From Chiloscyllium plagiosum (taxonomy: Eukaryota), in the NCBI RefSeq assembly GCF_004010195.1, contig NC_057746.1, positions 26,618,070 through 26,682,069 on the forward strand: a stretch of 64,000 nt of DNA. Direction: 5' to 3'. Each line of letters starts with the position of its first letter. The first letter of the stretch is position 1. This document shows, piece after piece, positions 12,904-62,462 of this stretch. The position numbers and the translations under genes were made by a program. Below the pieces are notes generated by a model. It had not been told where the DNA came from. It saw only the letters and a list, made by a program, of their open reading frames with translations, and ran no database searches.

Positions 12904-13245
12904 GTTTCACTTCCAGTTTGGTTCCATTTCCATGTCTTTTCCCTGCTCCAAAGAAGTTTATATTACAGTAATAGGTGTCCGAGTCTTTCTCAATCAAGTC
13001 GGAGATATTAATGAAGATCCTTTTCTTAGCAAATGAATCACTGCCCGATTTCTGCAGCCGAGCTGTGTAAAAGGGACTATCATCCAATTTGTACTCATCC
13101 GATTTACCCCGCGTCCAGTAAGCTGCACCAACTGGAGATGAAGTTCCTTCAAAGTCTAAAACACAGTTCAGTGTGACAGACTCCCCCTCTGTTACAGTTA
13201 TAAAGGGAGGGAACTGGAAGACAGTGATATTCATCTTCGTACCCA
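12904..13245 (-). CDS. NCR3: Gene A V(J)-type Ig domain exon, NKp30/NCR3-family receptor
   Basis: ttttctttctaccAG...AAAC|GTAAGT, 342 nt, phase 1-1. B-strand Cys (VTLNC), C-strand Trp (GAAYW), DSDTYYC, and joined J-like GxGT (GAGKRHGNGTKLEVK), resembling NKp30 ...VLGLGVGTGNGTRLVV. Family-level call; orthology not established. Confidence 0.85.
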
Positions 13246-13877
13246 CTGGTAGAAAGAAAAGAGACCTTTATATTTACGTACGCACATGTATATATAAAAC
13301 AAATAGGAGGTGTTAGCAATTTAACATATATCCGCCGAAAGTGCATGAAATCTTCATCATATACAATACGGTCTGAACCACGAAGCCAGATGAACAGTTT
13401 GTTGTGCTATCCCGTTTCACTGCCTTATGATCTGAACCAAGAGTTCAAATCATAAAAATGCAACTGCTGATCCATTCTCACGATCCTCTATGCTGACCAT
13501 TTTTCTTTTTGATTATAATTGCTTTCTACTCATGTGGGACAACATTCACCCTTCGTTGCTCGGGGTCCTTGCTCTTAAAGAAATCGCAGCGACTTTCACA
13601 AAGCGGGACAAAAGTGAAGAGAGTTCTGTGCCGACCTGGGGACAGCGAAGCTCCGAATAAGTCAACGGTTTGATTCTGCTCAAATCGCTGACATGAAATC
13701 GCGTGCAATCTGACAACCGGTTGGCATGGACGAGTTGGTCCGAAGGGTCTGCTTCCGTGCTGTACATCACTATGAGTCTATCTGGAAACAAATTCAAGGC
13801 TGTGCAAGGTCGGTGAACATTTGCGCGAACACTCTCCCTTCTCTACTTTATTTTGATTAAGGTGTTCATATATTTAT

Positions 13878-14216
13878 GATGGGGAGGTGCCGGTGTTGGA
13901 CTCGGATGGACAAAGTTAAAGGTCACAACAACACCAGGTTACAGTCCGACAGGTTTACTTGGAAATACAAGGTTTTGGAGCGCTTCTCCTTTCTCAGGTA
14001 GCTAGTGGGGCAGGATCATAGGACACAGAATTTATAGCAAGCTATTTGTAGCTGGTGGGTCAGGATCATAGGACACTGAATTGATAGTTTGCTATAAATT
14101 ATGTGTCCTATGGTCTTGCCCCATTAGATACCTGACGAAAGAGCAGTGCTTCGAAAGCTTGTACTTCCAAATAAATCTATTGGACAACAACCTGGTGTTG
14201 TGTGATTTTTAACTTC
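13878..14216. mobile_element. Penelope-like element remnant (family A), inverted arms with internal tandem duplication
   Basis: Same terminal sequence as 3267-3482 (ggtgttggac...acaccaggtt / aacctggtgttgtgtgatttttaac); degenerate ctgacgaaagagcagtgcttcgaaagct core. Confidence 0.75.
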
Positions 14217-15417
14217 ATGTATTTAAGACGAGCAGGTGATTGCGTTCCCGATAGCTGGCGAGCCCTTAATCTGACAAAGCGGTTATCCTAGGAGATGTGA
14301 CAATGCACGCTGTACTGATATAACACTCTCCAGATCTCGTACTCAAGCACTACTGCTCCCTTACTATTGTTGTTGAAATGTCGAAGCGAGCTCTGAACTT
14401 CAAGGAAATGTAATTCAATTAGAAAACACACACAAGGTGCAGAGTGGTTTGCAAAGAGAAATCAAGACGGCGTTGTGATTTAGGGTAAACAGATCACGGG
14501 AGCAAGGCAATCAGAAGAAGAGCGGGGGCCAGAGTGGATATTAAATAGTGGGGAATACAAAATGAGTATGTTTCATTGGCGTAGGATCGAGTAAAGGGAT
14601 AGTATAGGAGGAACAGAAAGACGGAAGATTGGCAGAAGTTTTGATAAGGGTGAAAATAAGGGAACAAACGAAGTGAGGTGACTGCCACAAATAATGTCTG
14701 TAGTTTTGGGTTGCACCGACAGTGGGTGTTGGCCGGTTGGCGTTCAGGGGAGGTTGGGAGTTGTTAGTAACAACGTGTAAGACGAATAGCTTCGTCCGAC
14801 ATTGTGAAGGCCACTGTTAGAATGCAGATCCACCAGACGGCTGGAAAATGCTGACTTTGCCTGATCGATGATATCAGGTCAGGAGGCTAAGATTATGGGG
14901 AAGTTCAAGGACGATCAAACAGCGCTTGTGCTGAATCCACAATTGCTCAGATATTTAAGCAATCCCCAAGCAGCAATATCTAGACAACACCAAAGCCTGG
15001 GCGAATAATCCTGTAAACAACACAAATGTCAGCGAGGTGTACATCCCTCGAACAGTATGAAAGCAAACGATTACATCATAATTATTGCACGTGCTTGTTA
15101 ATTTAATAAAATCTATGAATTTACATGGCACCTCTTCACATCCTTGAATTATGCAATGTGCTTCAGAATTGAACCTTGCCTTTCAATTATTGTTGAGAAA
15201 TCTAACATGGACGTCAATTCCTGTCAGCAATGCTTCACCAATCGGCTTTAGCTCAATTAAAACATTCGCCAGAAATATCTATAACCCTTCGCCGTAATTT
15301 CGATGCGAAGTAGGACGAGATAATTAAACAGTCGGTCTCCCGTCAAAGTTCCAAGCGGGAGATAGGGAGATTCTGGCAGAAACTCCATCTCTGTGCGTCC
15401 CGACTTTAGGATATAAA

Positions 15418-15768
15418 TGCGGGAGCGGCACAGTTTAGGGCGGCACGGTGGGCTCAATGGTTAGCACTGCTGCCTCACGGCGCCAGGGACCCGGATTCGA
15501 TGGGGCGACTGTCTGTGTGGAGTTTGCACATTCTCCCCGTGTCTGTGTGGGTTTCCTACGGGTACTCCGGCTTCCTCCCACAATCCAAAGATGTGCAGGT
15601 TAGGGTGGATTGACCATGTTAAAGTGCCTAGCGTATTCAGGGATATGCAGGTTAGATGCATTCGTTAGGGGTAAATGTAGAGGAATAGTGTAGGACAATG
15701 GGTCTGGGAGGGTTACTCTTCGGAGGGTCGGTGTGGACCTGTTTCCACAGCGATTCTATGATTCTACG
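15418..15768 (+). mobile_element. HE1-type SINE
   Basis: gcggcacggtgggctcaatggttagcactgctgcctcacggcgccagggacccggattcga head; typical body; tail gattctatgattcta. Confidence 0.85.
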
Positions 15769-15941
15769 AATGTTTCACGTATCAGCCTTCTCTGAGTTGC
15801 AGGCGCTTGACGTTCGCGTTTCTGTGGACATTTCAACCAGTCCAGGTTCTTAGAACACCATTGGTTTGCCTAATATTTGCCAAGCAAAATAACAGTACTT
15901 TCAATTCTCGATTTGGAGCGGCAAATATCAGTGGAACTCAC

Positions 15942-15999
15942 CTGCGCTTCTCGGAAAGCTGATCGACAGCATTAGGACCAGCAGTTGTCGGAAAACCAT
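15942..15999 (-). CDS. Gene A signal-peptide exon MVFRQLLVLMLSISFPRSA
   Basis: agagcATGG start; 19 codons + G then GTGAGT donor (phase 1, matches V exon); hydrophobic core. Possible acceptor tttctctcgccttctAG at 16038-16039 upstream. Confidence 0.8.
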
Positions 16000-17159
16000 G
16001 CTCTCTGAATTTGTGAGGAGGTTGCAGATAAGTGAATCTAGAAGGCGAGAGAAACACATTATTAATCGTTCTCGAAGCGTGAATGGAATTATTTGTGGTC
16101 TCCACGTAGATCACACAGGATGTGCAATTCGTGGCTGCAACTGAATCGCGTCGCCTTTAAAGCCATCTCCTTTAGAGTTCTGGAATTGGAGATAAACATA
16201 TTGATGACAGTGTTCGATAAGTCGGAAACGCAGACCATGAAACAAGACAACTACCCACAGGTCTTGTAGGTGTGATATTATGTTTAGGTCGTGGAGAGTC
16301 CCTACCCGCCAGCTGCATATTTCTCCGTTACGATGGCCTTGATAATGCACAAAGGGGATGAAAGAAAGGACGGGTTCCCTTAAAGAGGGGACCAAAAGTT
16401 TCCATTCACCTAATCGTGGTCCTGTGATTCCAGCCACAATGGTAACCAAGACTCAGGGATGTGCAGGCCAGATGGATGGTAAATGCAATTTCCAGGGATA
16501 GTGTGGGGACTTGGCCTGGGTGGGTTGCACTTCAGAGGATCGGTGCAGATTCGATGGGCCGGATGACTTCTACCTACATTGTAGGAACTCTATGTTTCTA
16601 TGCAATGTTTACGGTTATTGCTATCGTCAACATTTAGCCAGCAGCCCAGGCCCTGAGCGAAGGTTTGCAGGTTATTGGCACCTGCGCTCAATGAGCTAAT
16701 CGGCGCGACAGTCAGCATTCATGACCCTTCATCAGGCGGTAGTGAACTCCCCCCACCACGCCGCCCTCAGGCGATCAAGGTTAGTGCTCTGGCATTGAAG
16801 GCGCCGCGTTTCGGGAGAAGCGTTGAACAGCGGATTGGTAGTTTGTTCAAAATGTCTGTCCGGCGGTGAAAGTGCTTTCCGCAGTCTTGCGAGGCGCTGC
16901 ATAATCCTTTGCGTTTACTTTAAACGTTCGATCACTTCGTTTCAAACTACAATCCGCAGGGAGTCACGTTGCTTGTTGATGTGTGTTGAGATTGAACGTA
17001 GATTTTATGCTGGTTATGCACATATTCTCCGAGATCAATTTAAACAATTAATGATCTTTATCTGCATGCGAATCATCCGTAGAGCCCAACCGTTCATGTT
17101 AGTTATATTTGTTAATCTAACTTGATTGAAAAGGACGGATGAATGACAAATGCAATTAA

Positions 17160-19922
17160 GGAAGGAATGTCTTACGAGGAAAGGCTGAGGGACTTGAGGC
17201 TGTTTTCGTTAGAGTGAAGAAGGTTGAGAGGTGACTTAATTGAGACATATAAAATAATCAGAGGGTTAGATAAGTTAGACAGTGAGACCCTTTTTCCTCG
17301 GATGGCAGTGGCTAGCAGGAGTGGACATAGCTTAAAATTGAGGAGTGACAGATATAGGACAGATGTTAGAGGTAATTTCTTTACTCAGAGAGGGTAGGGG
17401 CGTGGAACGCACTGCCGGCAACAGCAGTCAGCATGTGGATGTACCTACTAGAGAAGGTGCAAAACCTGACCTACTTTTGGGAAATAAGGCAGGGCAGGTG
17501 ACTGAGGTGTCAGTGGGGGAGCACTCTGGGACCATAGTTCTATTAGATTTAAAATAGTGATAGAAAAGGATGGACCAGATCTAAACGTTGAAGTTCTAAA
17601 TTGGAGAAAGACAAGATTTGACGGTATTAGGCAAGAACTTTTAAAAGCTGATTGGGGGCAGATGTTCGCAGGTAAAGGGATGGCTGGAAAATGGGAAGCC
17701 TTCAGAAATGAGATAACGAGAATCGAAAGGAAGTATATTCCTGTCAGGGTGAAAGTAAAGGGTGGTAGGTGTAGGGAATGCTGGATGACAGAAGAAATTT
17801 AGGGTTTGATTAAGAAAAAGAAGCAAGCATATGTAAGGTATAGATCGAGTGAATCCTTAGAAGGCAGTAGGAGTATACTTAAGAGGGAAATCAGAGGGCA
17901 AAAAAGGGGACATGAGAGGGCTTTGATAAATAGGGTTAAGGAGAATCTAAAGGGTTTTTACAAATACATTAAGGACAAAAGGGTAACTAGGGAGAGGATA
18001 GGGCCACTAAAAGGTCAGCAAGGTGGCCTTTGTGTGGAGCCGCCAGAAAATGGGGGAGATACTAAACGAGGGGTTTGCAACAGTATTTATTGTGGAAAAG
18101 GACATGTAAGATATAGAAAGTAGGCAAATAGATGGTGACACCTTGCAAAATGTCCAAATTACAGACGAGGAAGTGTTGGATGTCTTGAAGCGCATTAAGG
18201 TGGATAAATCTCCAGGACCTGATCAGGTGTAGCCTAGAAGTGATTGCTGGGCCTTTTGCTGAGATATTTGCATCATCGCTAGTCACAGGTGAGGTGCCAG
18301 AAGACTGGAGGTTGGCTAACGTGGTGCCACTGTTTAAGAAGGGTGGTAAGGACAAGCCAGAGAACTATAGACCAGTGAGCCTGACGTTGGTGAATGGCAA
18401 GTTGTTGGAGGGAATCCTAAGAGACAGCATGTACATGTATTTGGAAAGACAAGGACTGATGAGGGATAGTCAACATGGCTTTGTGCGTGGGAAATCATAT
18501 CTCAAAAGTTTGATTGAGTTTTTTTGAAAAAGTAACGAAGTGGATTGATGAGGGCAGAGCGGTAGATGTGATCTATATGGACTTCAGTAAGGCGTTTGAC
18601 AAGGTTCCTCATGGGAGACTGATTAGCCAGGTTAGATCTCACAGAAGACAGGGAGAACTAGCCATTTGGATACAGAACTGGCTCAAAGGTAGAAGACAGA
18701 GGGTAGTGGTGGAGAGTTGTTTTTCTGACTGGAGGAATGCGACCAATGGAGTGCCACAAAGATTGGTACTGGGTCCTCTACATTTTGTCATTTACTTAAA
18801 TGATTTGGATAAGAGCATGAGAGGTACAGTTAGTAAGTTTGCAGATGACACCAAAATTGGAGGTGTAGTGGACAGCGAAGAAGGTTACCTCAAATTACAA
18901 CAGGATCTTGACCAGATGGGCCAATGGGCAGAGAAGTGGCAGATGGAATTTAATTCAGATAAATGTGAGGTGCTGCATTTTGGGAAAGCAAATATTAGCA
19001 GGACTTATACACTTAACGGTAAGTTCCTAGAGAGTGTTGCCGAACAAAGAGACCTTGGAGTCCAGGTTCATAGCTCCTTGAAAGTGGAGTTGCAGGTAGA
19101 TAAAATAGTGAAGAAGGCGTTTGGTATGCTTTCTTTTATTGGTCAGAGTTTTGAGTACAGGAGTTGGGAGGTCATGATGCGGCTGTACAGGACATTGGTT
19201 AGGCCACTGTTGGAATATTATGTGCAATTCTGGTCTCCTTCACATCGGAAAGATGTTGTGAAACTTGAAAGCGTTCAGAAAAGATTTACAAGGATGTTGC
19301 CAAATTTGGAGGATTTGAGTTATAGGGAGAGGCGGGGACTGTTTTCCCTAGAGCGTCAGAGGCTGAGGGGTGACCTTATAGAGGTTTACAAAATTATGAG
19401 GGGCATGGATAGGGTAAGGAGACAAAGTCTTTTCCCTGGGGTCGGGGAGTCTAGAACTAGAGGGCATAGGTTTAGGGTGAGGGGGGAAAGACATAAAAGA
19501 GACGTACGAGGCAGCGTTTTCACACAGAGGGTGGTATGTTTATGGAATGAGCTGCCAGAGGAAGTGGTGGAGGCGAGTACAATTGCAACATTTAAGAGGC
19601 ATTTGGATGGGCATATGAATAGGAAGGATTTGGAGGGATATGGTGCCAGGTGCTGGCAGGTGGGACTAGATTGGGTTGGGATATCTGATTGGCATGGACG
19701 GGTTAGACTGAAGAGTCTGTTTCCATGCTGTACATCTCTATGACTCTATGATTGTATGAGTAGAAAAGTCACTAACTTTAAGGACACTTAAATGGTCATT
19801 GGTTAGGCATATGGGACGAGAATGGAATAGTGTAGGTTAGATGGGTTTCAGATTTGTTTCACAGTTCAGTGCAGCATCGAGGACTGAGGGGCCTGTACTG
19901 CGCTGTAATGTTCTATGTTCTA
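17160..19922 (+). mobile_element. CR1 3' fragment (second subfamily) split by a younger CR1 insertion
   Basis: 17160-17427 (gaggaaaggctgagg...gcgtggaacgcactgcc) resumes at ~19758-19922 and ends in a (ttctatg)n tail. Confidence 0.7.
17428..19755 (+). mobile_element. 5'-truncated CR1 LINE including a 409-aa open RT/C-terminal segment (18514-19743)
   Basis: YMDFSKAFDKVPH, FADDTKIGG, WQMEFN, LEYYVQFWSP motifs; upstream part frameshifted. Retroelement, not a host gene. Confidence 0.93.
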
Positions 19923-19924
19923 TT

Positions 19925-21860
19925 AGTGGTAAACTAGGGGATTGAGAATGTTTAAAACTTGACAAAAGATGACCAGAAAATGGAGAAAATAAACTTTTAG
20001 GGTATACTTGCAAGTAATATCAGGATGGTCAGGAAAACATTTCTTTAGATTTCTGATAGAAGCCAAACTGAACACGTCATTGACATAATAAACCTGGGGA
20101 AAGAATAATGAGGAACAAGGAAGTGGTGAGTGGGTTGAATGAAAAATAAACTTTGCATCAGGTCTTCACAGTGGAAGACACAAGCAGCACTCCACAATGA
20201 AGAACTATTTAAGGGGTAAAAGGATGAGAGGAAATACATCACCAGAGAAGAAAGTGCTAGGGCAATTAACCAGTCTTAAAGCAGATAAGATTCCCAGACA
20301 TGATGCAATGCACCTTAATATATTAAATGATCACACAACCCCAGGTGTTGTGTGATTTTTAACTTTTTCCACCATAGTCCAACACTGGCACCTCCAAATC
20401 ATATATTAAATGAAATAGCTAGAGAGATAATGGATGCACTGGTAATAAACTTACAGGAATCCTTAGATTCTGGAAACGTCTCAGAGATGGTAAAACTGTC
20501 AATGTAAAATCTATATTTAAAAATGGAAGGGCACAAAAAAATACCACATGGAACTGTACACCAGTTAGCCTAACGTCTGTGTTGTGAAAACCTCTAAAGT
20601 CAATGACAAAGTATGCAGTAGGATAGCATTTACAAATACATAACGCTGTCAAGCAGAGTCAGTATAGCTTAATGAAGGGAAAATCATGCCTGACAATTTT
20701 ACTGGAATTGTTTGATGAGGTATCATGCAGAATAGATAGAGGTGGTGCAGTGAGTGTAATATATTTGGATTTTCAGACGGCGATTGATAATATATTACAC
20801 ATTAGGGTAATAAGATAAGAACCTATGGTGCTCAAGATGGTCTATTAGCATGGACAGAGGTTCAGTAAATAATAGAAGGCAGAGTTGAGGTAAGGGGGGC
20901 ATTTTGGCATTGTGACCTGTTGTGAGCTAGTTGTGTGCCACAAGAATTATTGCTGGGACCACTGTTATTTACAATATATATTAGTGACTTGGATGAGGAA
21001 AGTGAATGTATTAGCGCTAATTTTGCGGATGACACAAAAATAGGTAGGAAGGCAAGTGGTGAGGATGACATAAAGAGTTTTCATAAGTATATAGAGATGT
21101 TAGGAGAGGGCAAAAACTGGGAAGATACAATGTAATGTGGGAAAATGTGAGATTTTGGCAGGTAGAACAGAGTAGGAGCTGAATATTACTTCAATGGAGA
21201 AACACTGTAGAGAGCTACTGAACAGAGACATTTGGGTATCCTCATCCATGAATCACAAAAAAACTAGCATCCAAATTCAGTGGGTATTGGGAAGGTAAAC
21301 AGAACGTCCATTTTTATTTCAAAGAGAATATAATATAAAAATAAAACGATATTAAAAAACAGCTAGAATTATGCAGAGTTATGGAAAAAATATACAGTAC
21401 TGGCATTGAAGGCAGCTCACATCAGGCTCACTAGACTGATACTTGGCCTGGAGGGATTAACTTTTGGGAAAAGGTGGTGTAGATTTGGTCTGTAATTGTT
21501 AGGAAAACATCTAAGAGTCCTAGGGGACTTGACAGGATAGACGCAGAAAAGTCATTTCCATTGTGAGTGAATCTAGGATAAGAGGGCATACTATCAGAAT
21601 AAGGAGTCGCACATTTAGACTAAGATGAGAAGGAATTGCTTTTTTTCAAGGGTAATGAATCTGCGAATTCTTAGCTGCAGAGGGCTGTTAACATTAGATT
21701 ATTAAGTATATTCAAGTGTGAGCTAGATTTTTAACCAGTAAGGGAATCGAAGTCTATGGAGAAAGCACAGGAAAATGGAGTTGAGGATTATCTGATGATC
21801 TTATAAACCGTTATCTCTTTGACATGCGGAGCCGACTCGATGGGATGAATGACCTACTTC
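19925..21860 (+). mobile_element. Old CR1 LINE fragment (with small PLE family A piece at ~20329-20400)
   Basis: ORF 20935-21135 LLGPLLFTIYISDLD...FADDTKIG plus decayed flanking ORF2 and 3' UTR. Confidence 0.75.
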
Positions 21861-22849: not shown

Positions 22850-24780
22850 AGAATATAGAACATAGAACAATACAGCACGGGAACAGGTCCATCAGCCAAC
22901 TATGCCTATGATGACCTTGATGCTATTAGAGTCATAGAGATGTACAGCATTGGAACAGACTCTTCCATTCAATGCATCCATGCTGATCAGATATCGCAAA
23001 CAAATGTTGTCCCCTTTGACCTATATCCTCTAAACCCTTCCTATTCTATACCCATCCAGATGACTTTTAATGTTACAATTTTACCAGCGTCCAACACTTC
23101 CTCTGGCAGCTCATTCCATACACGCACCACCTTCTGCTTGAAAACGCTGCCCCTTACGTCCCTTTTAAATCTTTCCCCCCTAAACTAATTCAATCTGCCT
23201 GCACATGGCTTGTATCCCCCGATTCACTTTGTCGATCTAATTTCCTCCCCTGGCAGTGCATTCCAGGCACCTCATACTCTTTTGTAAAAAATACTTTTCT
23301 CACACATCTCTTTTAAACGTTCTCCCTCTCACCTTAAACTTATGCCCCTAGTATTTGACGCTCGAAGAAAGATGTCGACTATCCACCCTATCCTTGTCTC
23401 ACTTAATTTAATACACTTCTGTTAGGGAACGCCTCAACTTTTGATGCGATAGTGAAAAAAAATCCAAGTTTGTCCAACTTTCCCTTATAACTAATACAAT
23501 CCAGTCCAGGTAACTGGTAAAATTATTGCACCATCTCCAAAGCCTCCACATCCTTCCTATAGTGTGTATAGAGTATACCAAATCCGTCTGACCAAAGTTA
23601 TATACAGATGCAACCTGACTTGCCAACCTTTATATACAATGGCCCAACCAATGAAGGTGAGAATGCTATTTGCCTTCCTTATCACTTTATCCACTTCTGT
23701 TGTCACCTTCAAGGAGCTCTGGACATGGGCCACAATATCCCTCTCCATATCAATGCTTCTGGGTGTCCTGCCACGTACGTAATCTTTCCACCTGCATTTG
23801 ACCTCCCAAAATTCATCACATCACGCTCGTTGAGATTAAATACTATCTGCCATTTCTCCATCCAATTTTTGAACTAAATCCATATCCTTCTGCATCCATT
23901 ACAATCCTTCATGACTAAACACAACTCTATCAATTCTTGCATCATCTGCAAGTTTAATAATCAGACTAAGGGCATTTCATTCAAATCATTTGTATATGGA
24001 TGTAGATTTGATCCCTGAGCTGGAAGGTTCATTTTCAGACATTTCGTCACCTTACTAGGTAATATCTTCAGTGAACCTCCAGACGACGCACTGCTGATGA
24101 TTCTTGCTTTCTATTTATATGTTTGGGTTTGTTTGGATTAGTGAAGGCATTTCCTGTGGTGATGTCATTTCCTGTTCTTTTTCACAGGGTGTGGTAAATG
24201 GGGTCCAAATCAATGTGTTTGGTGATAGAGTTCTAGTTGAAATTCTAGAAGCATGGCATTCCAACGCTATCAACAAACCCATTGACTCGGACCAGTAATT
24301 ATCAGCAGTGCCTCGTCCAGAGGCTCACTGAAGATGTTACCTAGTATGGTGATGAAACGTCTGAAAATGAATCTTCCAGCTCAACGAGCAAACCTACATC
24401 CAGACCCTCAACCTGAGTTACAAATCTTCCCAAAACTCGCTCATTTATATATACTACAAACAACAGAGGTCCCAGAACTGATCGTTGTGGAACACCACAG
24501 GTCACTTGTCTCCAGTCAGAAAAGTACCAGTCCAAACCTGTCTTCTATGACGAAGCCAATTTTGCATCAAACTTGCTTACTCACTATGCAACTCATGCAA
24601 ATTGATCTTCTGGACCAGCCTACCATGAGGAACCTTGACAAATGCTTTAGTCAAGTCCACGTATGCCTTATCTTCACTAATCATCTTCGCCACTTACTCA
24701 AAAAACTCAATCAAGTTAATGAAATACACCTCCCTGCATACAATCATGATGACTATGATCTCTGTTTCCAAAATGCTCCC
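22850..24780 (-). mobile_element. Nested CR1 fragments (minus)
   Basis: 3' tails atagaacatagaac at ~22850 and tagagtcatagag at ~22928; RT pieces such as 24341-24535 GVPQRSVLGPLLFVVYIN. Confidence 0.8.
23998..24440. mobile_element. Penelope-like element remnant (family C) with GIY-YIG C-terminal remnant and inverted ends
   Basis: Inverted ends (ggatgtagatttg...caaacctacatcc). Peptide EILEAWHSNAINKPID typical of PLE endonuclease C-termini. TSD tcatttgtatat (23986-23997) / tcatttatatat (24441-24452). Hammerhead motif 24325-24364. Confidence 0.75.
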
Positions 24781-33500: not shown

Positions 33501-36479
33501 AATCTTGTCAGCATACTTCTATGCATTGATTACAATGTGTTCACAAAATGTGCATGATCTGTAACTTTGTGAAAAAAGCTTAAAATGTTGCCTGAAAGCT
33601 AACATGAGAGATGAACTAGGACCAGAAACAGGCTACAAACTCCTCAAGCCCGTCCTGCCATTTAACAAGGGCATAGCTGATGTGCCGTAGGCATCAAATC
33701 CTCTTTTGTGCAGTTTGTCAGAGCTATCATAACTATTATAGATCTTCTTGTTGTTCTACCCCCTCTACCCATAATCTATTGCATGATAGTGATGGTCCAA
33801 TCAAGTTTTTGCATACGTCTTCACGATTGAATTGAAATGCTACTGTTGTTCAGTTCTCCATTTCACATGCTAATTGGTTCACAGCTACAACCCTTGTATA
33901 CGTGTGCATGCATGGTGGTTAGATTATTTCATGCGTGTCTGTAATTAAATGAAACCAAGTCTGTTGAAGGTGTCATTGCTGAGCACGATGGTTATTTTCG
34001 GATCAACGTTCTTATTTATAGTACTGCTCGCGACGTCTGCAAAATTTGCCCATTGCGTGCATTCGCTCAACCCACTTAATAATTGGAAAATAACGAACAG
34101 TATGAACCCAATTCTACAATTACAAACATAATTTCCCCCCCTGCTCAGTTACCCTAATTCAGAAAACTAGAATTTTGCCCTACAGACGTCAAATTTGGTG
34201 ACTGACGCTGTTTGTCTTGGAAAGCGGTGTCAGACTTTCTGCTTGAATTCCTGGAACAGAGAGGATTGATAGTACAGAATTATTCGCTAGGATATGTCAG
34301 AGCCACGCTGTGAATCAAAGCTAGGTTTCAGTACAGCTGGAATTCTCTACTCCTCTTCTTAGGTCACTAGGAAACCAGTTGTATTTTTAGAACTGATTCA
34401 TAGTCACTTTCGCCAGTATTGTATTTTTCCTTACAATTTCCTCACGTGCACTATTTGCTTTGGCGGTGAGGTGACTTGCAATTGTAAGTAACGTTAATGC
34501 AGGTTTTGGATTACTAGCCCAGCAAGTTAACTATTTCATAACTGTGGGCCCGCTAACATGATCTGAATTAATGTTATGTTCACAGCAAGTAGAAACCTTT
34601 TATTTAGTATTGACTTTTCTAAAAAAAAAGTTGTGAACAGCACTTCCTGACGCTTGAGACCTTAACTGAAACCTTAAATTCAGTACACACACGCAATCTC
34701 TTTCTGGAAAGCAATGGACAAATTATGACGCTGCTTATGTATCAGTTTGAGACGTCCTAACATAAAGGCCGCCGGGTACCCTCAGCGAATTGTTGCAGCA
34801 TGCCGAGGAAAAGCTGTGATTCCTTGGATTTCATAATAACAGAAGTCTTTGTAACTCAAGTAGAGGTATCTCTAAGTTGTTCTGCACTTCACTGTCACTG
34901 GTTGAGTCTAACACGTCCCAATAAACTGAAAGTTGTATCCATATTTGGTGCATTCTTTTCCCTTAAATGTTAGAATATCAAGTCTTGTCCTTGTAAAACT
35001 ACCAAATTGCAACCACATAGAAAAAAAAAGATTCCTGCACGAAATAACATATTTTCCAACACATGTCTCTTTTCGCCTGATTATTCGCACTCATTGCCTT
35101 TTTTTTTCCAGGCGGCAATTTGAGTTCAGCCTTTGGACATTTTAAATTCTATTTTAGAACTAAGAATCAACCTAAAAAAGAACGTTAACGATTTAGATAG
35201 GGTTTTCCTGGACTGAAGCCCAGGCAGGGTTTCACTGTCAATGCATACACTGCGTAGCCGTTTGAGACTGCGAGTAAATCGAATATTTGAATGGTTTGCC
35301 GCATCTTTTTTCACCGTGTGCACAAGTGTCTCCTTTGTCGACTTGGAGGCAATAGCTGTTTCACAGCTGGTTAGCTTGGCTGTTAAAACAAACACTTCTG
35401 TGACCTTTACAGCGTTGCAAGAAAACGAGACTCGTAGGTAAAAATAATTGCGAGGCCACTATTCTTATGCAGCCGCCACAAGGTTATGCACGTTTTATTT
35501 CATCAGATATATCAGTTTATGGGTTTTCCGTCGACAGACCTGGGATGCAAATCGGTCGGGTCTACATCCAACTCAGTTTGCGTCTGATGTGAAACCAGGA
35601 GTGGCTCTCATTGTTTTCCAGCTTGGTGGATTCACCAGCCCGTGATGGGTGGGTAAGTGAGATACTTCTGCTGAAATGATCGGTAAACCATTTAGGAATG
35701 GGTTTATTGACTGGCTCAGCTAAGAGGACAGCGGCTGAAGGGAACATGGGTGAGTGGGGCGAATGCGGATTTTCTGGAGTACTTGGAGACATGCTCAAAG
35801 AGTAACATTAGAAAGAGCAGTAAAACCTCCGAGCTGTCTCTCAGGCACCCGTTGGCAGGTAAAGCTCGCGACAAAGTGACGGCGCCGCGGCAGAACTACC
35901 CAACTAAACTCCAGAGGAGTAAGTGGCAACTGAGATTTCATGTAATCCCGTTAGGATTCTGAAAAACAAAACTAAGGCTCCACTTCAATTTGTTACCCGG
36001 CTCTAGACAGGCGGAAAGGCCGTGAGAGAAGCTGCCCAATGTCCATTCGATTAGATGGAAAATATCGCTGCAATTGAACGATGCAGTGGAACAAGTTCAC
36101 GTTTTATTGGTCCAAATATTCGCCACTTCTTTGATTCCTTTCTTTTGTATCCCGAGCGAATACTAGCTTAATTCAATTTATTTACCAAGGGTCACACGGG
36201 CAATCAGAGCTCACTCCTGTTCTTCGGAAAGCACTACTGTTTTTGCCCAATTGTAAAATGTACTGTAACATTCGGGCCCAGAAACCAGCGGTGAACTCAC
36301 TATGTGTGAAAAGCCAGTTTCTCAATGGGACAGCCTTCTGGTTATGCACATTTTAACTGCTGTTGTTACACAATTGTCGGGGGAATTGAATGAACAGATA
36401 AGATGAATATATTCATAAAATGACGATACTCTTTTATTTCAGGATTTTTAGCCATATCGAGGAAGTCTTAGGGCACCGA

Positions 36480-47100: not shown

Positions 47101-47939
47101 GCTATAAGAAGGAAAATGTAGCAAACCAAAGCATTTGAAGGAAAGCTTGAACAACGAGGGAGGAGTTGGTGAGAGACAAGTTAACTCATGACCAGTATTG
47201 ATTTACACTGATAATCGAAACACAAATTCGATAGGTTTATTCAGTGAAGTTACATTTTGGGATCCAGTATTTGAATATTTAGGAAAATATTCTGATGTGA
47301 GTTAGTTTATTTGGAAAGTATAGTTTGAAACTAGGCCTATGGTTTAAATCTTTTCACAGTTGGGGTGCTCATTGTCTCATGTAGCGGTCTGATGTACATT
47401 AATGAACAGACATAGATAACAATGATTGGTCAAAAGTCCATCTTTACTGTGTCATGAGACAGGTAGAATTGCAGAAGTCGGATTACAAGGTCCTTTTGTC
47501 CAACAAATCCAAAATTCTTCCCATGCCCTGATAACTCACTGAAATGACCCTTGGTAATTTCGGTATGTTGTGTACCCTGTACACATCAGTTGAGGCTTTC
47601 TTGAATTCTCAAATGAAGCTGATATGAAGTTGGATGTTGAACCAAAGTGTCTGTGAAATAAAGTGCAATACTGTAGATGCTGGAAATCTGAAATAAAAAA
47701 CAGAAAATGCTGGTCTGACAGTACCTAGAGAGAGAGAAACAATGCTAATATTTAATGCTTACTGTTGAAAGTGAAAATTCTGAAGAAGGATCGTACCCGA
47801 CTCCAAACATTAAGTTTCTTTCCCTTTCCCCAGATGCTACCAAATGGGCTGAGTATCTCCAGCATTTTCTGCCTCTATTACCTCAGATTCTTCATTCTCT
47901 ATTACAGTTTCACCAATAATTTAATTGATATGTATTATT

Positions 47940-48145
47940 AAAGGAGAAAGTGAGGTCTGCAGATGCTGGAGATCAGAGCTGAAAATGTGTTGCTGGAAAA
48001 GCGCAGCAGGTCAGGCAGCATCCAGGGAACAGGAGAATCGACGTTTCGGGCATTCCTGAAGAAGGGCGTATGCCCGAAACGTCGATTCTCCTGTTCCCTG
48101 GATGCTGCCTGACCTGCTGCGCTTTTCCAGCAACACATTTTCAGC
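47940..48145. mobile_element. PLE family B inverted-repeat remnant
   Basis: 76-bp inverted arms 47978-48053 and 48070-48145; core CTGAAGAagggcgtatgcccGAAAcGTC at 48056-48083; approximate TSD atgtattattaaag / acgtattaataaag. Confidence 0.8.
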
Positions 48146-48753
48146 ACGTATTAATAAAGCCTATTATGTTTTCCTTACTAATACTCCAACGTGAATTCAA
48201 CACGGAGAACATAGTCATTCCACAAGCTGTAGATAGATATACAATATGCATCGCTATCTTGCTAAGAAAGAATCTTATCCTTTTTATCGGGTTCAGTGCT
48301 GCAGCTTTGTAGGAACATTGAACTGAGGTTCGGGAATAGGGCGTTCAGTCTTTTGAGCAGGCTCCACTATTCAGTAAAATCAAGACTGATCTCGCTGTAA
48401 TCTCAGCTCTACTGTGTCCCTTGCCCCAGATAGCCATTGACTGCTTTGCCCATCAAAAATCCATTTAGCGCAACTTTGTGTACAACCTCCACTACTTCCT
48501 GGGGAAGAGAATTCCAAAGACGAAGAACACTGAGAGTAAAAAGACGTTATCTTCATCTTTGTCTTATGTAGAAGACTCTTGTTTTTAATCTGTGTCCCCT
48601 GGTTCTAGAGTATATTGCAGGAATAACCGTTATTTTAATCATTACTAATTCTCTCCTTTTCCTTGTCCTGATGTCTATGTTGGTCAACTCAAAAGTAACA
48701 TTTATCTGTGGAGTGGTGTCTAATGTACAAATATATAACAGTAAATACATTAC

Positions 48754-49368
48754 GTCATGGACCAGACTAAACTTGCTCAAAATATATGAAGAAGGTACAC
48801 TAAGCCATAACGTTTCTTATTTGGATGTTGTGCATAAGGCATTGTGTTCTGGATGTAATTCAATTGATCAACCTGCCAGGTATGAAACAAAACACATTTT
48901 ATTCATACACTGCAATTAACACACAAAATAAAAACAAAAGAAAATAATTGGTTTCACAGTAACTCTATCAAAATGCTTAACAAAATACTAAACTATTCAT
49001 TAACTTTTTCTGATATAGCAACATCCCATAAGCACACTCCTTGCCAAAGACAAATTAAGCAAAATAGATTGTCTCACATGTAATTCGAGCAGCAGGAAGA
49101 GAACACCATCTTTTATCTGTAACAGAGAGAGGAATAACTTTCCAGTTTCAAGATCCAAGGAACTGCTACAGGTAGAAACAAAAACTCTTGGTTCTTTGTG
49201 AACTTGACCCCACCCACTCAGGCTACTTCTGTTGTTATGACTTAACATAAAAGGTCTCACAATCTGTTTACTTTATTGGTTTTGGTGTAGTGCTTGCCGC
49301 CTCTGTCTCAACTTTTCTTCATAGAAGCAAAAGACAAAATATACCTCTTAAAGCCACAGTATATCGCA
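48754..49368 (-). mobile_element. Possible solo LTR
   Basis: About 600-bp block with minus-strand AATAAA (ttttatt ~48897) and LTR-like composition. No TSD or clean TG...CA found. Confidence 0.25.
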
Positions 49369-49628
49369 GGTTCTACAGTAACGCATTATTGACATGCAAA
49401 ATACACTGCATCACCAACTGCTAATGTACCTTTACAAATTTTTTTTTTAAAAAGCCCATGCTGAAGGCAATAATACATTTCCTTTTCTGCACCAGTGCTG
49501 TCTGTGCATGTGGTTTTATCAATTAAAAACCAATAAGTAATTCATTGGTGAAGTCAACAGGCAAGGAGTTGACAGTTTTCAACTTAAACGCCATTGTAAC
49601 TAATTCTTCCTGCAGTTTATTTTTATCG

Positions 49629-49689
49629 ATGATGATTTTAATTTGGCAATTTATGACGATGCAGCTCATTTTCTTTCCACTAATTGTTG
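49629..49689 (+). CDS. Gene B signal-peptide exon MMILIWQFMTMQLIFFPLIV
   Basis: 20 codons + G then GTGAGT donor (phase 1, matches V exon); hydrophobic; F-P at the same distance from the donor as in the gene A leader. Acceptor-like ctaattcttcctgcAG at 49614-49615. Confidence 0.7.
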
Positions 49690-51004
49690 GTGAGTGAACT
49701 TATATTATTCGTTATTATGTACAACTCTTTATCTAGCAGTTGATGCCTTGTGATGTTCTATTGTATTTAGACAAGTAGTTAGTACGTAATGCCCTAGTTA
49801 ACTATAATCACTGTTATTTTATTTGAGTGCATAATTTATATATTTGGCATTTAATTGAATAATGAGAATACAATTAACATTTTGAAAATGTTTCAGTTTA
49901 AAACCAGCGAATATACCAGCTAAAACGTTTCATCAGAAGCTATCTTATTCGCATTTTTATGCACCATAAGCTTGCTTTATAAAATGTAAAAGAGTTTTGT
50001 CTTTAATTTACTTGCGTCTTGAAAAAAAGGTATAATCGTTTTGCTTTGAACCATTTTGTTCTGTGCTCAACGTACTGGTTTTCCATTCTTTTTGTTGACA
50101 TTTGGTTTGAAATGGCTTTGTTCATGTGCAATTAAATATAAATATAAAAGGATAAGATAGGCGAATAAATGTCTGGATTGATAGTGCAGGGGGTGGGATT
50201 TATATTCGAGGGCAGACTCTCAGTTTAACGGCGCCTGTGCTAGCCAAATTGAATCAGGACACATTGTGGAGGCAGGCCACACGGTCGATCGACTCTGCAC
50301 CGACATTCCCAAGTGCATCCCACTCAGATCAAATCCGCTACCCCCGTGCTTCCTATGACTAACCCACTTCGCTTCCATTCTGGGATGAAACAGGAACAAT
50401 CGACGAAGGTCCACGGAGACATCAGGAGAATTTGCAAACCCTACACAGACAGTTGCTCAAGGCTGGAATCGAACGCGGCTCCCTGTTGTTGTGAGGGAAC
50501 AGTGCTCACCATTGAACCACCACGTTGCTCCGAAAAAAAAACTATGTCCTCAACGGGTGTTTTTCCAATATTGTTGTAGTGACAGTTGGTGGTGTTCGCG
50601 GTGGAGTTTCATAAAAGAAGAAAGAAATTGAGTCTAAATCAATTTTAGTGTAGCACATGAATATATGGCACACAGTGAAGAAGTGTGAATTGTAATCTTG
50701 TGGATATAATATAAACATGGTCTGAAGAAGGGCACAGTTGGGTGTCAAATATTTCTAGTTAGAATGTGTTCAGAAAGTGAAGAAAGGAAATAAATAAAAG
50801 GAGAAGGGTTAGCATTGGTAAACATTGTGGTGTTGCAGAAAGTCAAGTTGCAGAGGGTACAAAGTCGATTTTACTAGAAAAAAGGAACAGAAATAGCATA
50901 GCTGCATGACTCATAATTTGTACAGCACAAACCTGGAAGGAGCAAGTAGAAGAACATACCTGTAAGAGCATTGCAGCAAAATGGAAGCATTATAGAGGGG
51001 AAAT

Positions 51005-51675
51005 GATTAGATTCCCTACAGCGTGGAAACAGGCCCTTCGAACCAAAAACATCAAAGGAACAGGAGAATCGACGTTTCGGGCATAAGCCCTTCTTCAGGA
51101 GCTCTCCTGCTCCTTTGATGCTGCCTGACCTGCTGCGCTTTTCCAGCAACACATTTTTAAGCTCTGATCTCCAGCATCTGCAGTCCTCACTTTCTCCTTC
51201 GAACCAACAAGTCCAAAGAGTAGGAAATGTGTTGCTGGAAAAGCGCAGCAGGTCAGGCAGCATCCAGGGAACAGGAGAATCGACGTTTCGGGCATAAGCC
51301 CTTCTTCGGGCTTATGCCCGAAACCTCGATTCTCCTGTTCCCTGGATGCTGCCTGACCTGCTGCGCTTTTCCAGCAACACATTTCCAGCTCTGATCTCCA
51401 GCATCTGCAGACCTCACTTTCTCCTCAAGTCTAAAGAGTAACCCACACAGACTAATTTCTCTCTGACTAATGCACCTAACGCTATGGGCAATTTAACAGG
51501 GCCAATTCACCTGGACTGCACACCTTTGGACTGTGGGAGGAAACCAGAACACACGGAGGAAACACACGCAGACACAGGGAGAATGTGCAAACTCCACACA
51601 GACAGTCGCCCGAGGCAAGAATCGAAACTTGCACCCTGGTGCTGTGAGGCAGCAGTGCCAGCCACCGTGCCACCC
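51005..51675 (-). mobile_element. HE1-type SINE carrying two PLE family B insertions (51047-51196 and 51223-51425)
   Basis: SINE tail attagattccctacag, head gccaccgtgcc; TSDs cttcgaaccaa (51036-51046 / 51197-51207) and caagtc[c/t]aaagagta (51208-51222 / 51426-51440). Confidence 0.85.
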
Positions 51676-53310
51676 TCAAGAAACTTGCTCGCCTGTTTGA
51701 AAATGTAACAAAAACTTGATAAAAGATAACACTGTTAATGTGATGTATATGGAATCCAAGAAAGGTTTTGATATCGTGTCATGCAACACACTTACGAGGA
51801 AATCATCAGGTGATGATGTGTTGGTGGCATCATTGTGCAAAATTGGTTTAAAGACAGGAATAAGAGAGTAATTGTCAATAGATACTTTTGGGGCAGGAGG
51901 GAGGTTTGTAGTGGCGTTCCCCAGGTCCTGTTATTGGATCCCTTGCTTTCCTTGATATATATTAATGATATATTTCTTGGTGTGTAGGATACTTTCAAAG
52001 TTTTCAGATAACACAAAACTTAGAAAATTGTAAACTGTGCGAAAGATGTTTCAGAAAGTTAAAAGGATAGCGACAAATTGATGGAGTGGGCAGATATGTG
52101 GATGATCAGTTTCAGTGCATGGAAAACTTACGTGACACATTTTGGTAGGATAACAATGAAATGCAATATAAAACAGAGGGCATAATTCTAAGATGGGGTG
52201 AAGGTGTGATGGCAGAAAGACCTGGGTGCATACGCGCATAAATCATTGAAGGGGCGGGATAGACAGAGAGAGAGAGAGAGAAAACAGTAAGCAAAGCATA
52301 ATGTATCCTCAACTGTTTTAGATTAGATTCCTAACAGTATGGAAACAGGCCCTTCAGCCTAACCAGTCCACACCCTCCGAAGAGTTAACCACCCAGATCT
52401 ATTTCCCTCTTACTAATGCACCTAACGCTATTGGCAATTTAACATGGCTAATTCACCTGGACTGCACACCTTTGGACTGCGGGAGGAAACCGGAGCACCC
52501 AGAGGAAACCCATGCAGACACGGGGAGAATGTGCAAACTCCACACAGACTGTCGCCCGAGGCCAGAATCGAACCTGGGACCGTGAGGCAGAAGTGCCAAC
52601 CACTGAGCCACCGTACCACCCTCAAGTAACTTGCTCGACTTTTTGAAAAGTTAACATAAAGGCTTGATAAAGGGTAACACCGTTAATGTGATGCATATGG
52701 AATCCAAGAAGGTTTTGATACCGTGTCATGCAACAGAGAGTGTAAGAGCAAGGAGGTGATGCTGAAATTGTACAAGACACTTGTCAGACTTCAGAAGGAG
52801 GATTGTATGCAGTTCTAGGCAGAATTATCAGAAGGATCTAAATGTTTCAGAAAATGTTTACAGGTATGTTTCCAGGAATGCAGACATTCACTTATGAGGA
52901 AAGAATTAAAAATATAGGACCGTTTCCTTGAAGAGAAGGAGACTAAGAGAGAACTGATAGAGGTTTCAAACTCACGAGCAGATTGGATAGAGCAGATAGT
53001 GAGAATGCGTTCCAGTTTATAAACGGACCAAGAGCAAAAGGACATAGATTTGGCATGGTCTGCAAAAGAAGTGAGGGTGTTGTAAACCACAACCTTTCCA
53101 CTCAGTGTATAGTTAGGGCAGATGGTGGAGGTAGGTACAATTGAGTCATTGAGCAGAGCATTGGATGATGAGTTGGATTAAAAAAAAATAAGCTGAAAAT
53201 GTATGGGGAGAAAACCCCAAGAGGTTGTATGTTGGCAATGATGCTCAACTAACATGTCTGTGCAGTCACAATTGACGAATGGCCTTCTTCTGCACTTTAC
53301 AATTGTGTTA
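51676..53310 (+). mobile_element. Old CR1 RT/3' fragment interrupted by an HE1 SINE copy (52318-52622, -)
   Basis: Decayed gtggcgttccccagg...ttggatccc, ttttcagataacacaaaact (FADDTK-like), tgtacaagacacttgtcagac, 3' UTR. Confidence 0.7.
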
Positions 53311-53977
53311 TACTCCAGAAGGTCCCGTGCCTCGGAGACCAACTAGGTTAGGCCACTCTCTGGTAGTTACTTTTAAAAAAAGTTAACTGACCCATCCAGC
53401 TTTGAAATCCAACGATTAAACCTAATATATATCTGTATACCCTACACCTCTCACCATGATACATAACTTGGAAGCATTGCAAACCGTGCTAAGTATTGTG
53501 TAAAAGGACATTGACAACTTGTTGGAGTGACTAGCTGTTTATTGCAGAGAAGTGTGAGATAATACACGGAGAGATAGTATAAAATCAAGTTTACCATTCA
53601 AAGACGTCTGCAATAGCAGAGAACTCTGGATGTGTACCGTATGTGTATAAAATATTACACTTATCGGACAGGTGCATAGCACAGTCAATAACGCATATTT
53701 TGTCTCAGAGCTGATTGATCGGAGATGTGTATAGGAACAAGGGTTTAATGTTAACAAGGTACAATCCAGCTTTATTTCATTCTCAGACTAGAACAAATTA
53801 ATCGTGAAAGTTCTTTTTTTGTTTACTTGTCAGCAATTTATCCCCCAGTTTTCTTGGCTCACTAGTAATATCCCAGTGTATAGTATGATAATTGAATTCT
53901 CCACTTTCACTCGTCCTTTGCTCTCCCATTTTCTGCAACCAGCTTGTAAATTCACTCACAACAATTAGTTATGTTGA

Positions 53978-54250
53978 TCGGATTCCCCTACAGTATGGAA
54001 ACAGGCACCTTAGGCCAACAAGTCCACACCGACCCTCCAAAGAGTAACCCACCCTCTTACTAAATGCACCTAATACTATAAGTGATTTCGCTTAGCCAGT
54101 TCCCCTGACCTGCACATCTTTGGACAGTGGGAGAAAACGCACAGAGAGAATATGCAACCTCCAAGCAGATAGTTGCCCGATGCTGGAATCGAACCTTGGC
54201 CCTTGTTGCTGTGAGGTAGTAGTGCTAACCACTAAGCCACAGTACGGCAG
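53978..54250 (-). mobile_element. HE1-type SINE
   Basis: gattcccctacagtatggaaacagg...gtgctaaccactaagccac. Confidence 0.8.
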
Positions 54251-55464
54251 AAAAACTGCATCAGAAGTTTTGTGATGCAGTGGTAGCGTCCCTTTCTGAG
54301 GTGTCAGTCCCACTCCAGCGTATGAATGCCTCGATAGTACGTTCATAACATTAGCAAAACAGGTTAGTGAAAGACGGCGAATCTCCTCCTAAGCCATGCT
54401 TGTTGAAGGGTGATGTCCTTCAAGCTGCAGCTTCTATGACAGGCTGGCCACTTCCTGGAGAAAAAAAAGCGATGAAAATACCCATAAATATGGACTTTAT
54501 CAAGCCCAGTTGTTATTATATAAAGGAACAGCTCAAAGTCAAATATAGCAACTTAATTCTAAGAAAGTGGATTTCGTCTTTGTCTCCTCAGTATACCCCA
54601 TCCCTACTCATACTATACATCATTACGTTCATCCTTCATTTTTCTACTTCTCCTACCTTTTAGACAACTTTCTAGCCACGGATATCAGGCTTTCAGTCGT
54701 CGTCCTGTTGAGGAAAGGCCTGTATTCTTGGCATTATAATATAGTTCCACCCGCCAACGTCTGTCTGCAGAACATCGAACTTACTTGCATGTGCATTTCG
54801 AACACGGTCCCCAAAACCATATTGCACTTCCTCGGATTTCTCTGCTTCCTGATCCTCAACCATTAAACAAAATTCTCTTTAGCCCTCCGTTCAATAGTTT
54901 CCCATTTCTAGTTTTCCATGTTTATGCAATCCAGATTCCCACCTCTCCTGCTATATCAGTTAAATTCAAGTGGCAAATTCTTGCTTCTTGTGGGAGCTAT
55001 ATATTTGTAGCGGATTTTACAAATGTGGGCCATTGTTTGTCAATTGAGGGGCTCCGTTTGCGAAATGTAGCAAGAACATTCTCAAATTGCTCGAAAATGT
55101 TACGAATTAGAAAATAACCATCCAGAGACAAGAGATAATAGAAAAATGAATACCATTTAATTCAGTATCAGAGGTAACCTATTTGCATTTACATTTAATT
55201 TTGGTTCAGAAGAGTAGACAGAGAGATGGTACAACACAACCAGTATGTAACTTGCTTAACTTTTCCAGAGCATGACTGGTTTGCGAACGACTTTTTAAAA
55301 AGTACTTCTTTGCGCCTGTTTGGCTATTCAGTATCTGCTGCTCTGTTCATTTTCTACATACTTATATGATGTAACATGATATTTACAGTTACCACCGAAA
55401 ATTGTATGATAGCAGCAGAGAGGAATGGAATTCATCATTTATCATGTTATTATTTTTCTATTAG

Positions 55465-55806
55465 TGGGTACGAAGATGAACGTCACTGTCTTCCAGTTCC
55501 CTCCATTAATAACTGCAACAGAGGGGCAGTCGGTGACGCTGAACTGTGCCTTGGATTTTGAAGGAACTCTATCTCTGATTGGTGCAGCTTATTGGACACG
55601 GGGTAATCTGGATGGGTACAAATTGGATAATAGCCCCTTTTATGAAGCTCGGCTGCAGACATCAGACAGTGATTCATTTGCCAACAGCAGGATCTTCATT
55701 AATATCTCCGACTTGATTGAGAAAGACTCGGACACTTATTACTGTCATATAATTGTACTTGGAGCAGGGAAAAGACATGGAAATGGCACCAAACTGGAGG
55801 TGAAGC
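55465..55806 (+). CDS. NCR3: Gene B V(J)-type Ig domain exon, NKp30/NCR3-family receptor
   Basis: tatttttctattAG...AAGC|GTAAGT, 342 nt, phase 1-1. VTLNC, IGAAYW, DSDTYYC, IIVLGAGKRHGNGTKLEVK, closely matching NKp30 IGSVTW / VEVLGLGVGTGNGTRLVV. Family-level call. Confidence 0.88.
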
Positions 55807-62460: not shown

Positions 62461-62462
62461 GG

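What the first reader, a model, noticed from the sequence alone, without database searches (positions are those of the whole stretch)
12904..55806. Similarity between the two genes stops at the V-exon boundaries: exon-restricted concerted evolution
The V exons are both 342 nt, with no indels and 46 differences by hand count (about 86% identity). They include a 47-nt identical run (AGGATCTTCATT...TCGGACAC). The flanking introns diverge immediately (ttctttctaccag vs tttttctattag; gtaagtggcaac vs gtaagtaataaa), and the leader and TM exons are not alignable. A whole-gene duplication young enough to leave this modest synonymous divergence should leave alignable introns. Inference: the ligand-binding exon was homogenised by gene conversion or exon shuffling between older paralogues, which the inverted orientation could favour.
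Basis: partly seen in the sequence, partly recalled or inferred. Interest (0 to 1): 0.7.

Follow-up and report, generated by a model that had tools for sequence, protein, structure and literature searches.

The report
Shark NKp30 pair shares binding exon
Two facing bamboo-shark genes for NKp30-type immune receptors, one predicted to inhibit and one predicted to activate, are 87% alike in their binding-domain exon only, likely because that exon was copied between them long ago, a process already known from frog and mammal receptor pairs.

Summary
Both genes belong to the shark NCR3/NKp30 family. Gene A has an uncharged membrane segment and ITIM- plus ITSM-type motifs (predicted inhibitory). Gene B has an NKp30-type membrane arginine (predicted activating; tail and expression not shown). 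A whole-gene duplication at the age of the V exons is unlikely: A's membrane exon keeps 18-30 of 39 residues across four other sharks but shares 8 of 36 with B, and a family duplicate at dS 0.16 keeps 82-86% alike introns. Best reading: old, probably piecemeal, exon-limited gene conversion between paired receptors (0.6). Exchange is not ongoing: dS is 0.33, about 7-10 times the divergence between related species, and A and B form stable clades. A second V-only pair with the same predicted opposite signals lies on the same contig. The mechanism is published for Xenopus CEACAM and mammalian pairs. I found no paper on it for shark NCR3, but the key shark paper was unreadable. This scan noted similar NKp30-family pairs in other shark genomes.

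The parts
15942..15999 (-). Gene A leader exon (19 codons, phase 1)
   Evidence: GT donor; matches residues 47-65 of RefSeq XP_043534294.1
12904..13245 (-). Gene A V exon, germline-joined VJ-type Ig V domain (GNGT motif)
   Evidence: AG/GT bounded, open frame; Pfam V-set; model's top fold match NKp30, tied with PILR
12154..12273 (-). Gene A stalk/TM exon, no charged residue in the membrane span
   Evidence: 30/39 identical to nurse shark NCR3 QTT61901.1
5500..5518 (-). Gene A first cytoplasmic micro-exon (19 nt)
   Evidence: AG/GT; exon chain equals the RefSeq model from residue 47 on
5372..5400 (-). Gene A second cytoplasmic micro-exon (29 nt)
4480..4508 (-). Gene A third cytoplasmic micro-exon (29 nt). 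The last exon, with IHYAKV (ITIM consensus) and TEYATI (ITSM consensus), lies about 1.7 kb left of the window, from G000:C37:26616339
49632..49689 (+). Gene B leader exon (second in-frame ATG at 49629); predicted, no RNA support
   Evidence: its MQLIFF stretch resembles the leaders of the downstream genes C and D
55465..55806 (+). Gene B V exon, 86.5% identical to A's V exon
   Evidence: orthologue GCC33666.1 in C. punctatum 97%
55689..55735 (+). 47-nt run identical to A 13021-12975
   Evidence: P = 0.03; also one shared 47-nt contig in organism B
58042..58170 (+). Gene B stalk/TM exon with Arg (codon 58098-58100, FVLR) at the start of the hydrophobic span; predicted, no RNA support
   Evidence: single match in the genome search; cytoplasmic exon not identified

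Best explanation
A and B are two head-to-head shark NCR3/NKp30-family genes, predicted to be an inhibitory and an activating receptor, whose V exon was likely made alike by gene conversion between older paralogues. Shown: exon structures, V-limited similarity, A's ITIM/ITSM-type tail, B's membrane arginine, and the age mismatch between exons. Inferred: the inverted genes (42 kb between V exons) paired by looping; exchange ended at the splice sites because the introns were already too diverged to pair; A-type was the donor, since B's V falls among A-type V domains; exchange came in at least two pieces, the 3' half after the split from the nurse shark lineage; it has been rare or absent since; and selection kept it because B gains a ligand-binding site like that of the inhibitory A.
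For: Exon clocks disagree. V: A-B 92/113, against A-nurse 87/113, A-horn 78/113, A-Mustelus 68/113, A-Heptranchias 52/85. TM exon: A-B 8/36, against 30, 20, 21 and 18 of 39 for the same four sharks. Leader: A-B 5/19, A-nurse 13/19. Controls: the tandem V duplicate L009/L011 (dS 0.16) keeps 82% and 86% alike introns; genes C and D keep flanks at 67% and 74%; simulated introns at d = 0.33 were detected 39 of 40 and 40 of 40 times. Mosaic: residues 1-60 group A with nurse (88/93; A+B clade p-AU 0.045), residues 61-113 group A with B (73/90; A+nurse p-AU 0.057). B's leader region matches C and D (2 and 1 of 300 shuffles) but not A (163 of 300). Replicate: L006 (uncharged TM, Tyr-motif tail) and L007 (TM Arg) are 80% alike over 362 nt of V only. 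Precedent: Xenopus ceacam301/303, conversion 'exactly restricted to the exon', opposite orientation (PMC5112662, passages).
Against: No B-type gene was found outside Chiloscyllium in three homologue searches and one representative search, so an older B scaffold is inferred, not seen. The whole-V tree supports A+B only at 67/77 and does not reject A+nurse (p-AU 0.28). The split point for the mosaic test was chosen after seeing the site patterns, and both p-values are marginal. dS rests on 80 silent sites; at d = 0.45 simulated introns were found in 30 and 23 of 40 and at 0.6 in 2 and 1 of 40, so the intron argument weakens if the true distance is higher. The V domains differ at 21 residues, many in loops and the F-G region, so a shared ligand is not assured. 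B's tail is unidentified and B's splicing is unshown.
Confidence: 0.6

Rival explanations
1. Exon shuffling or chimeric duplication. A copy of A's V exon, with little flank or with flank later lost, was inserted into or recombined behind another gene's leader and in front of an activating TM exon. One event, no conversion.
For: It predicts the same exon-clock mismatch. B has no orthologue outside Chiloscyllium in the searches. The cluster gains and loses V exons: genes C and D show leader, TM and Tyr-motif exons but no V exon, and one gene has a tandem V duplicate. Unchecked scan notes describe such routes in other sharks.
Against: A DNA-level copy should carry intron flank; similarity stops within about 10 and 6 nt of both splice sites. 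No displaced old V exon was found in B's span. One copying event does not explain two halves with different trees (marginal).
Confidence: 0.24
2. Ordinary inverted whole-gene duplication of A, followed by fast change of leader, TM and introns while V was held back.
For: The genes are neighbours with the same phase-1 exon plan. The dS interval is wide and detection fails near d = 0.6. B's TM exon scores slightly above shuffles against four A-type TM exons (p 0.00-0.02). Masked intron 1 was borderline (2 of 60 shuffles).
Against: TM identity A-B (8/36, p 0.09) is far below that of A to Heptranchias (18/39), and the exon lengths differ (120 vs 129 nt). None of the four masked non-coding comparisons aligns clearly, whereas both in-family duplicates do. 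B's leader is closer to C/D than to A.
Confidence: 0.11
3. Very old paralogues whose V exons stayed alike through purifying selection alone.
For: dN/dS is 0.30; the E-F region is conserved in all A-type sharks.
Against: Silent sites are only 27% different, far from saturation. A's own orthologues in other sharks are less like A than B is.
Confidence: 0.05

Closest known systems
Xenopus tropicalis ceacam301/ceacam303 paired receptors (PMC5112662; abstract start and passages seen)
   Same: Similarity restricted to the ligand-binding V-type exon plus splice consensus, poorly conserved introns, opposite orientation, ITIM/ITSM partner versus activating partner.
   Different: There the event is recent, with almost no silent differences; here dS is 0.33. 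The activating frog gene has its own ITAM-like motif, whereas B has a TM Arg. Different family.
Merohomogenization of paired opposing receptors: KLRC/NKG2, KLRI, KLRB, Ly49, PIR (Fossum et al. 2011, PMC3210942; abstract, outline and part 1 of the Discussion seen)
   Same: Homogenisation limited to the ligand-binding exons, with opposite signalling parts kept.
   Different: That paper proves it by cross-species orthology of both signalling parts; here only A's signalling part has orthologues in hand.
SIGLEC11/SIGLEC16 (PMC5701461; abstract and passages seen)
   Same: Head-to-head inhibitory and adaptor-coupled genes with conversion over the V-set exon.
   Different: The converted tract there is about 2 kb and includes upstream DNA; the genes are about 9 kb apart and conversions recur in each primate lineage.
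Shark NCR3 family, nurse shark QTT61901.1 (Kinlein et al. 2021; title seen in a reference list; text not held, content not seen)
   Same: Gene A is 73-74% identical to QTT61901.1 over leader, V, TM and tail.
   Different: The nurse protein keeps only the distal Tyr motif. No nurse shark protein with B's TM exon was found.
Human NKp30/NCR3 (PMC6514059, passages)
   Same: Single V domain; TM arginine that binds CD3zeta/FcRgamma, as predicted for B; top structural match 6yjp_A, Z 15.2, rmsd 2.3, 108 aligned.
   Different: Human NKp30 has no ITIM-bearing twin (recalled). The fold match is tied with PILRA and PILR (Z 14.8, 14.7). B7-H6 binding is untested here.

Membership tests
Shark NCR3/NKp30 family | Single germline-joined VJ-type V exon with GxGT motif | tested here: met
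   One 342-nt exon ending GNGTKLEVK in both genes; Pfam V-set
Shark NCR3/NKp30 family | Closest named relatives are NCR3 | tested here: met
   Nurse shark NCR3 QTT61901.1, 78% in V and 73% full length; horn shark and Heptranchias NCR3-like
Shark NCR3/NKp30 family | Linked to the MHC | tested here: met
   29 of 50 MHC class I matches lie on the same contig C37; the nearest is about 9.6 Mb away, so this is chromosome-level linkage only
Shark NCR3/NKp30 family | NKp30-like fold distinguishable from other V domains | tested here: inconclusive
   NKp30 ranks first but is tied with PILR within 1 Z unit; by sequence, antibodies and VNARs score as well
Shark NCR3/NKp30 family | Binds B7-H6 | not testable with these tools
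   No binding assay available
Paired opposing receptors | One partner with ITIM/ITSM and uncharged TM | tested here: met
   A: IHYAKV and TEYATI, matching the consensus given in PMC5112662; both motifs present in Mustelus, catshark and Heptranchias, distal one only in nurse and horn shark
Paired opposing receptors | Other partner with a charged TM residue | tested here: met
   B: FVLR at the start of the TM span, as in NCR3-named proteins of bichir, sturgeon, a frog and a newt
Paired opposing receptors | Activating partner lacks an inhibitory tail | tested here: inconclusive
   0 of 8 candidate acceptors in 58200-64000 give a Tyr motif, and the nearest gives Gly-stop. A Tyr-motif exon 25 kb downstream follows another gene's leader and TM, but without RNA it cannot be excluded for B
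Paired opposing receptors | Co-expression and shared ligand | not testable with these tools
   No usable RNA cover was obtained; no binding data
Merohomogenization (concerted evolution of ligand-binding exons) | Similarity confined to the ligand-binding exon | tested here: met
Merohomogenization (concerted evolution of ligand-binding exons) | Both signalling parts predate the speciation after which V exons cluster by species | tested here: inconclusive
   A's signalling part is old; no B orthologue outside Chiloscyllium; A+B clade 67/77 for whole V, 73/90 for the 3' half
Merohomogenization (concerted evolution of ligand-binding exons) | Recent, species-specific homogenisation tracts | tested here: not met
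   A and B clades are stable within Chiloscyllium; A-B differences are 46 and 52 nt against 5-11 between orthologues; only one site (codon 41) is shared species-wise

The most novel reading that the evidence does not exclude
The shark NKp30 family repeatedly builds inhibitory/activating pairs by exon-precise overwriting of the V exon. Two independent pairs on this MHC chromosome (A/B, L006/L007) and a V exon rewritten in two steps would make NKp30 ancestrally part of a paired-receptor system, whose inhibitory arm mammals lack, and would extend ligand-domain homogenisation to cartilaginous fish.
Probability: 0.4. Interest if true: 0.62.

Novelty: new member of a known kind. Interest (0 to 1): 0.42.

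Why it matters
NKp30 is described as an activating receptor in mammals (PMC6514059). Matched inhibitory and activating forms in a shark, made alike by exon-limited exchange, would show that this known way of building paired receptors also operates in cartilaginous fish and in this family. It gives a small, testable pair: two ectodomains that differ at 21 residues, to be tested against shark B7-H6 or pathogen ligands. The mechanism itself is not new.

Tried and rejected
Expression: no RNA holder was listed for B. A single-cell RNA run, about 2% read, covered only repeats in 55100-59100. This is no evidence either way. The 47-nt run as a recent conversion tract: rejected (P = 0.03; present in organism B too, broken in organism C). 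Codon 41, the same letter in both paralogues within each of two species: organism C carries the split state, and flanking differences leave at most a 13-nt tract, so it is inconclusive. Dead old V exon inside B: none found by profile or tblastn. Decayed V exon at about 35590-35934: DNA hint only, no protein signal. Homologue of B's TM exon: best E 0.075 among 161 proteins; only itself in the genome. BLAST hit upstream of L006/L007: a repeat-like stretch, not leader homology. No complex prediction was run, since no shark B7-H6 sequence was in hand. Literature: 8 full-text searches found no paper on conversion or paired receptors in shark NCR3. Kinlein 2021, Flajnik 2012 and Ohta 2015 are not held, so their text and supplements may bear on novelty. 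PMC10751288, PMC12227049, PMC12272517 and PMC11599192 were seen as passages only and did not address this pair. Sequence and place look-ups in earlier scan findings gave nothing.
Full report
Observation. The two exons lie at 13245-12904 (minus, gene A) and 55465-55806 (plus, gene B). Both are 342 nt, with 46 differences, no indels and a longest identical run of 47 nt. Nei-Gojobori values are dS 0.33 (21.5 of 80 sites) and dN 0.10. The self-BLAST hit covers 358 nt and stops about 10 nt into the upstream and 6 nt into the downstream intron, which is splice consensus. After repeat masking, five of the six other region pairs did not beat shuffles; intron 1 was borderline at 2 of 60 (B's leader and both TM coordinates were one base off there and were corrected). 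With stricter scoring the best flank matches were 40 and 9 nt. The 47-nt run is weak evidence alone (P = 0.03).

What the genes are. A's V exon is 100% identical to RefSeq XP_043534294.1 of Chiloscyllium plagiosum and 78% to nurse shark NCR3 QTT61901.1. Six exons in the window plus a last exon 1.7 kb to its left reproduce that model from residue 47. The product has an uncharged TM segment and a tail with IHYAKV and TEYATI, which fit the ITIM and ITSM consensus. B has a predicted leader (49632-49689), the V exon, and a 129-nt TM exon (58042-58170) in one open frame. Its TM span opens with FVLR. An arginine at this place is how human NKp30 binds CD3zeta/FcRgamma (PMC6514059), and NCR3-named proteins from bichir, sturgeon, a frog and a newt show the same pattern. 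B's tail is unresolved: none of 8 candidate acceptors in the rest of the window yields a Tyr motif. The V model (pLDDT 89) matches NKp30 best, tied with PILR. MHC class I genes share the contig (29 of 50 matches). The genes point away from each other.

Is the V exon really younger than the rest? Yes, on three tests. First, exon clocks. B's V is closer to A (92/113) than A's orthologues in nurse (87), horn shark (78), Mustelus (68) and Heptranchias (52/85) are. A's TM exon keeps 30, 20, 21 and 18 of 39 residues in those four sharks but shares 8 of 36 with B. The leader test is weaker: A-nurse 13/19, A-B 5/19, but only 4-6 of 19 for the more distant sharks. Second, in-family controls: the tandem V duplicate L009/L011 at dS 0.16 has 82% and 86% alike introns, and the downstream genes C and D align at 67% and 74% around leader and TM. 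Third, simulation: introns evolved to d = 0.33 were detected in 39 and 40 of 40 trials, at 0.45 in 30 and 23, at 0.6 in 2 and 1. The intron argument is therefore good but depends on dS; the TM argument does not.

How old, and how often? Contigs from two related organisms differ from this genome by about 3-5% around B's exons and introns. A-B differences are 46 nt here and 52 nt in organism B, against 5-11 nt between orthologues (organism C's B exon was only partly visible because the table was cut). A and B each form a well-supported clade. So there is no ongoing homogenisation. For whole V, the best tree has A+B together at low support (67/77) and A+nurse is not rejected (p-AU 0.28). Polarised sites separate by position: three join A with nurse at residues 17, 38 and 55, five join A with B from residue 64 on, and one joins B with nurse. 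Split at residue 60, the halves give different trees (p-AU 0.045 and 0.057). The split was chosen after seeing the sites, so this is suggestive only. It fits an older whole-exon transfer followed by a later 3' exchange after the nurse shark split.

Replicate. On the same contig, L006 (C37 17.62 Mb, plus) and L007 (18.61 Mb, minus) are 80% alike over 362 nt of V only, dS 0.44, with unalignable flanks. L006 has an uncharged TM and a tail exon with VQYAEI and MVYAKV. L007 has a candidate TM with WCVR next to an assembly gap. Its case is weaker: at this distance intron detection is partial, and L006 is closer to its nurse orthologue (84/109) than to L007 (81/109).

Mechanism. Most likely (0.6), conversion between inverted, already diverged paralogues overwrote B's V exon with A-type sequence. 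Tracts would end at the splice sites because that is where pairing homology ended. Selection would keep the product if an activating receptor gained from seeing what the inhibitory one sees. Since then 21 residues have diverged, many in the loops at residues 35-38 and 47-50 and in the F-G region at 94-98, as was described for frog CEACAM pairs. The main rival (0.24) is a one-off shuffling or chimeric duplication; the cluster does gain and lose V exons. Whole-gene duplication (0.11) and selection alone (0.05) fit poorly.

Known and new. The phenomenon is published as merohomogenization (PMC3210942), and the exon-exact, opposite-orientation form is published for Xenopus ceacam301/303 (PMC5112662). 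Eight searches found no report for shark NCR3, but the main shark NCR3 paper could not be read. Unchecked scan notes record similar NKp30-family pairs in other shark genomes; I reached the paired-receptor reading before seeing them. Verdict: real feature, new member of a known kind, interest 0.42.

Noticed in passing
G000:C37:17621840-17630821 (+) and 18605758-18598100 (-); loci L006, L007: Second pair in the family with V-only similarity (80%, dS 0.44): an uncharged-TM, Tyr-motif gene and a candidate Arg-TM gene about 1 Mb apart, inverted. The last 95 nt around L007's V donor are tandemly duplicated (99%).
   Followed up: partly
G000:C37:26687143-26725800 (+), 5-44 kb right of the window: Two related genes (C, D) with leader, uncharged TM and Tyr-motif exons, similar to Heptranchias XP_067830066.1, but no V exon found between leader and TM. 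They may be decayed or V-less inhibitory genes.
   Followed up: partly
window 35590-35934 (+): Weak DNA likeness to the V exon (top of 368 windows) ending in a 15/16 match to A's donor site at about the right spacing; no protein-level signal. Possibly a very decayed V exon, possibly chance.
   Followed up: partly
G000:C37:17663950-17655185 (-); L009, L011: RefSeq XP_043533794.1 ('SIRP-beta-1-like') is a two-V NCR3-family gene from a tandem exon duplication, with an Arg TM. A horn shark relative (XP_067865381.1) has a similar TM exon start but no Arg and a long tail, suggesting a switch of signalling type.
   Followed up: partly
window 24553-24684 (-): The first 34 or so residues of RefSeq model XP_043534294.1 come from a LINE reverse-transcriptase fragment; the real start is likely the ATG at 15999.
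   Followed up: partly
window 12904-13245, organism C contig: All 9 listed differences from this genome in A's V exon change an amino acid; a hint of positive selection, too few sites to be significant.
   Followed up: no
G000:C37:26781115-26781409 (+): Broken V-like exon between the L004 and L005 genes.
   Followed up: no
window 17000-49000: The space between the genes is mostly LINE/SINE-like repeats; the open frames of 150 codons or more look repeat-derived or unassigned, and no further intact family exon was found.
   Followed up: partly
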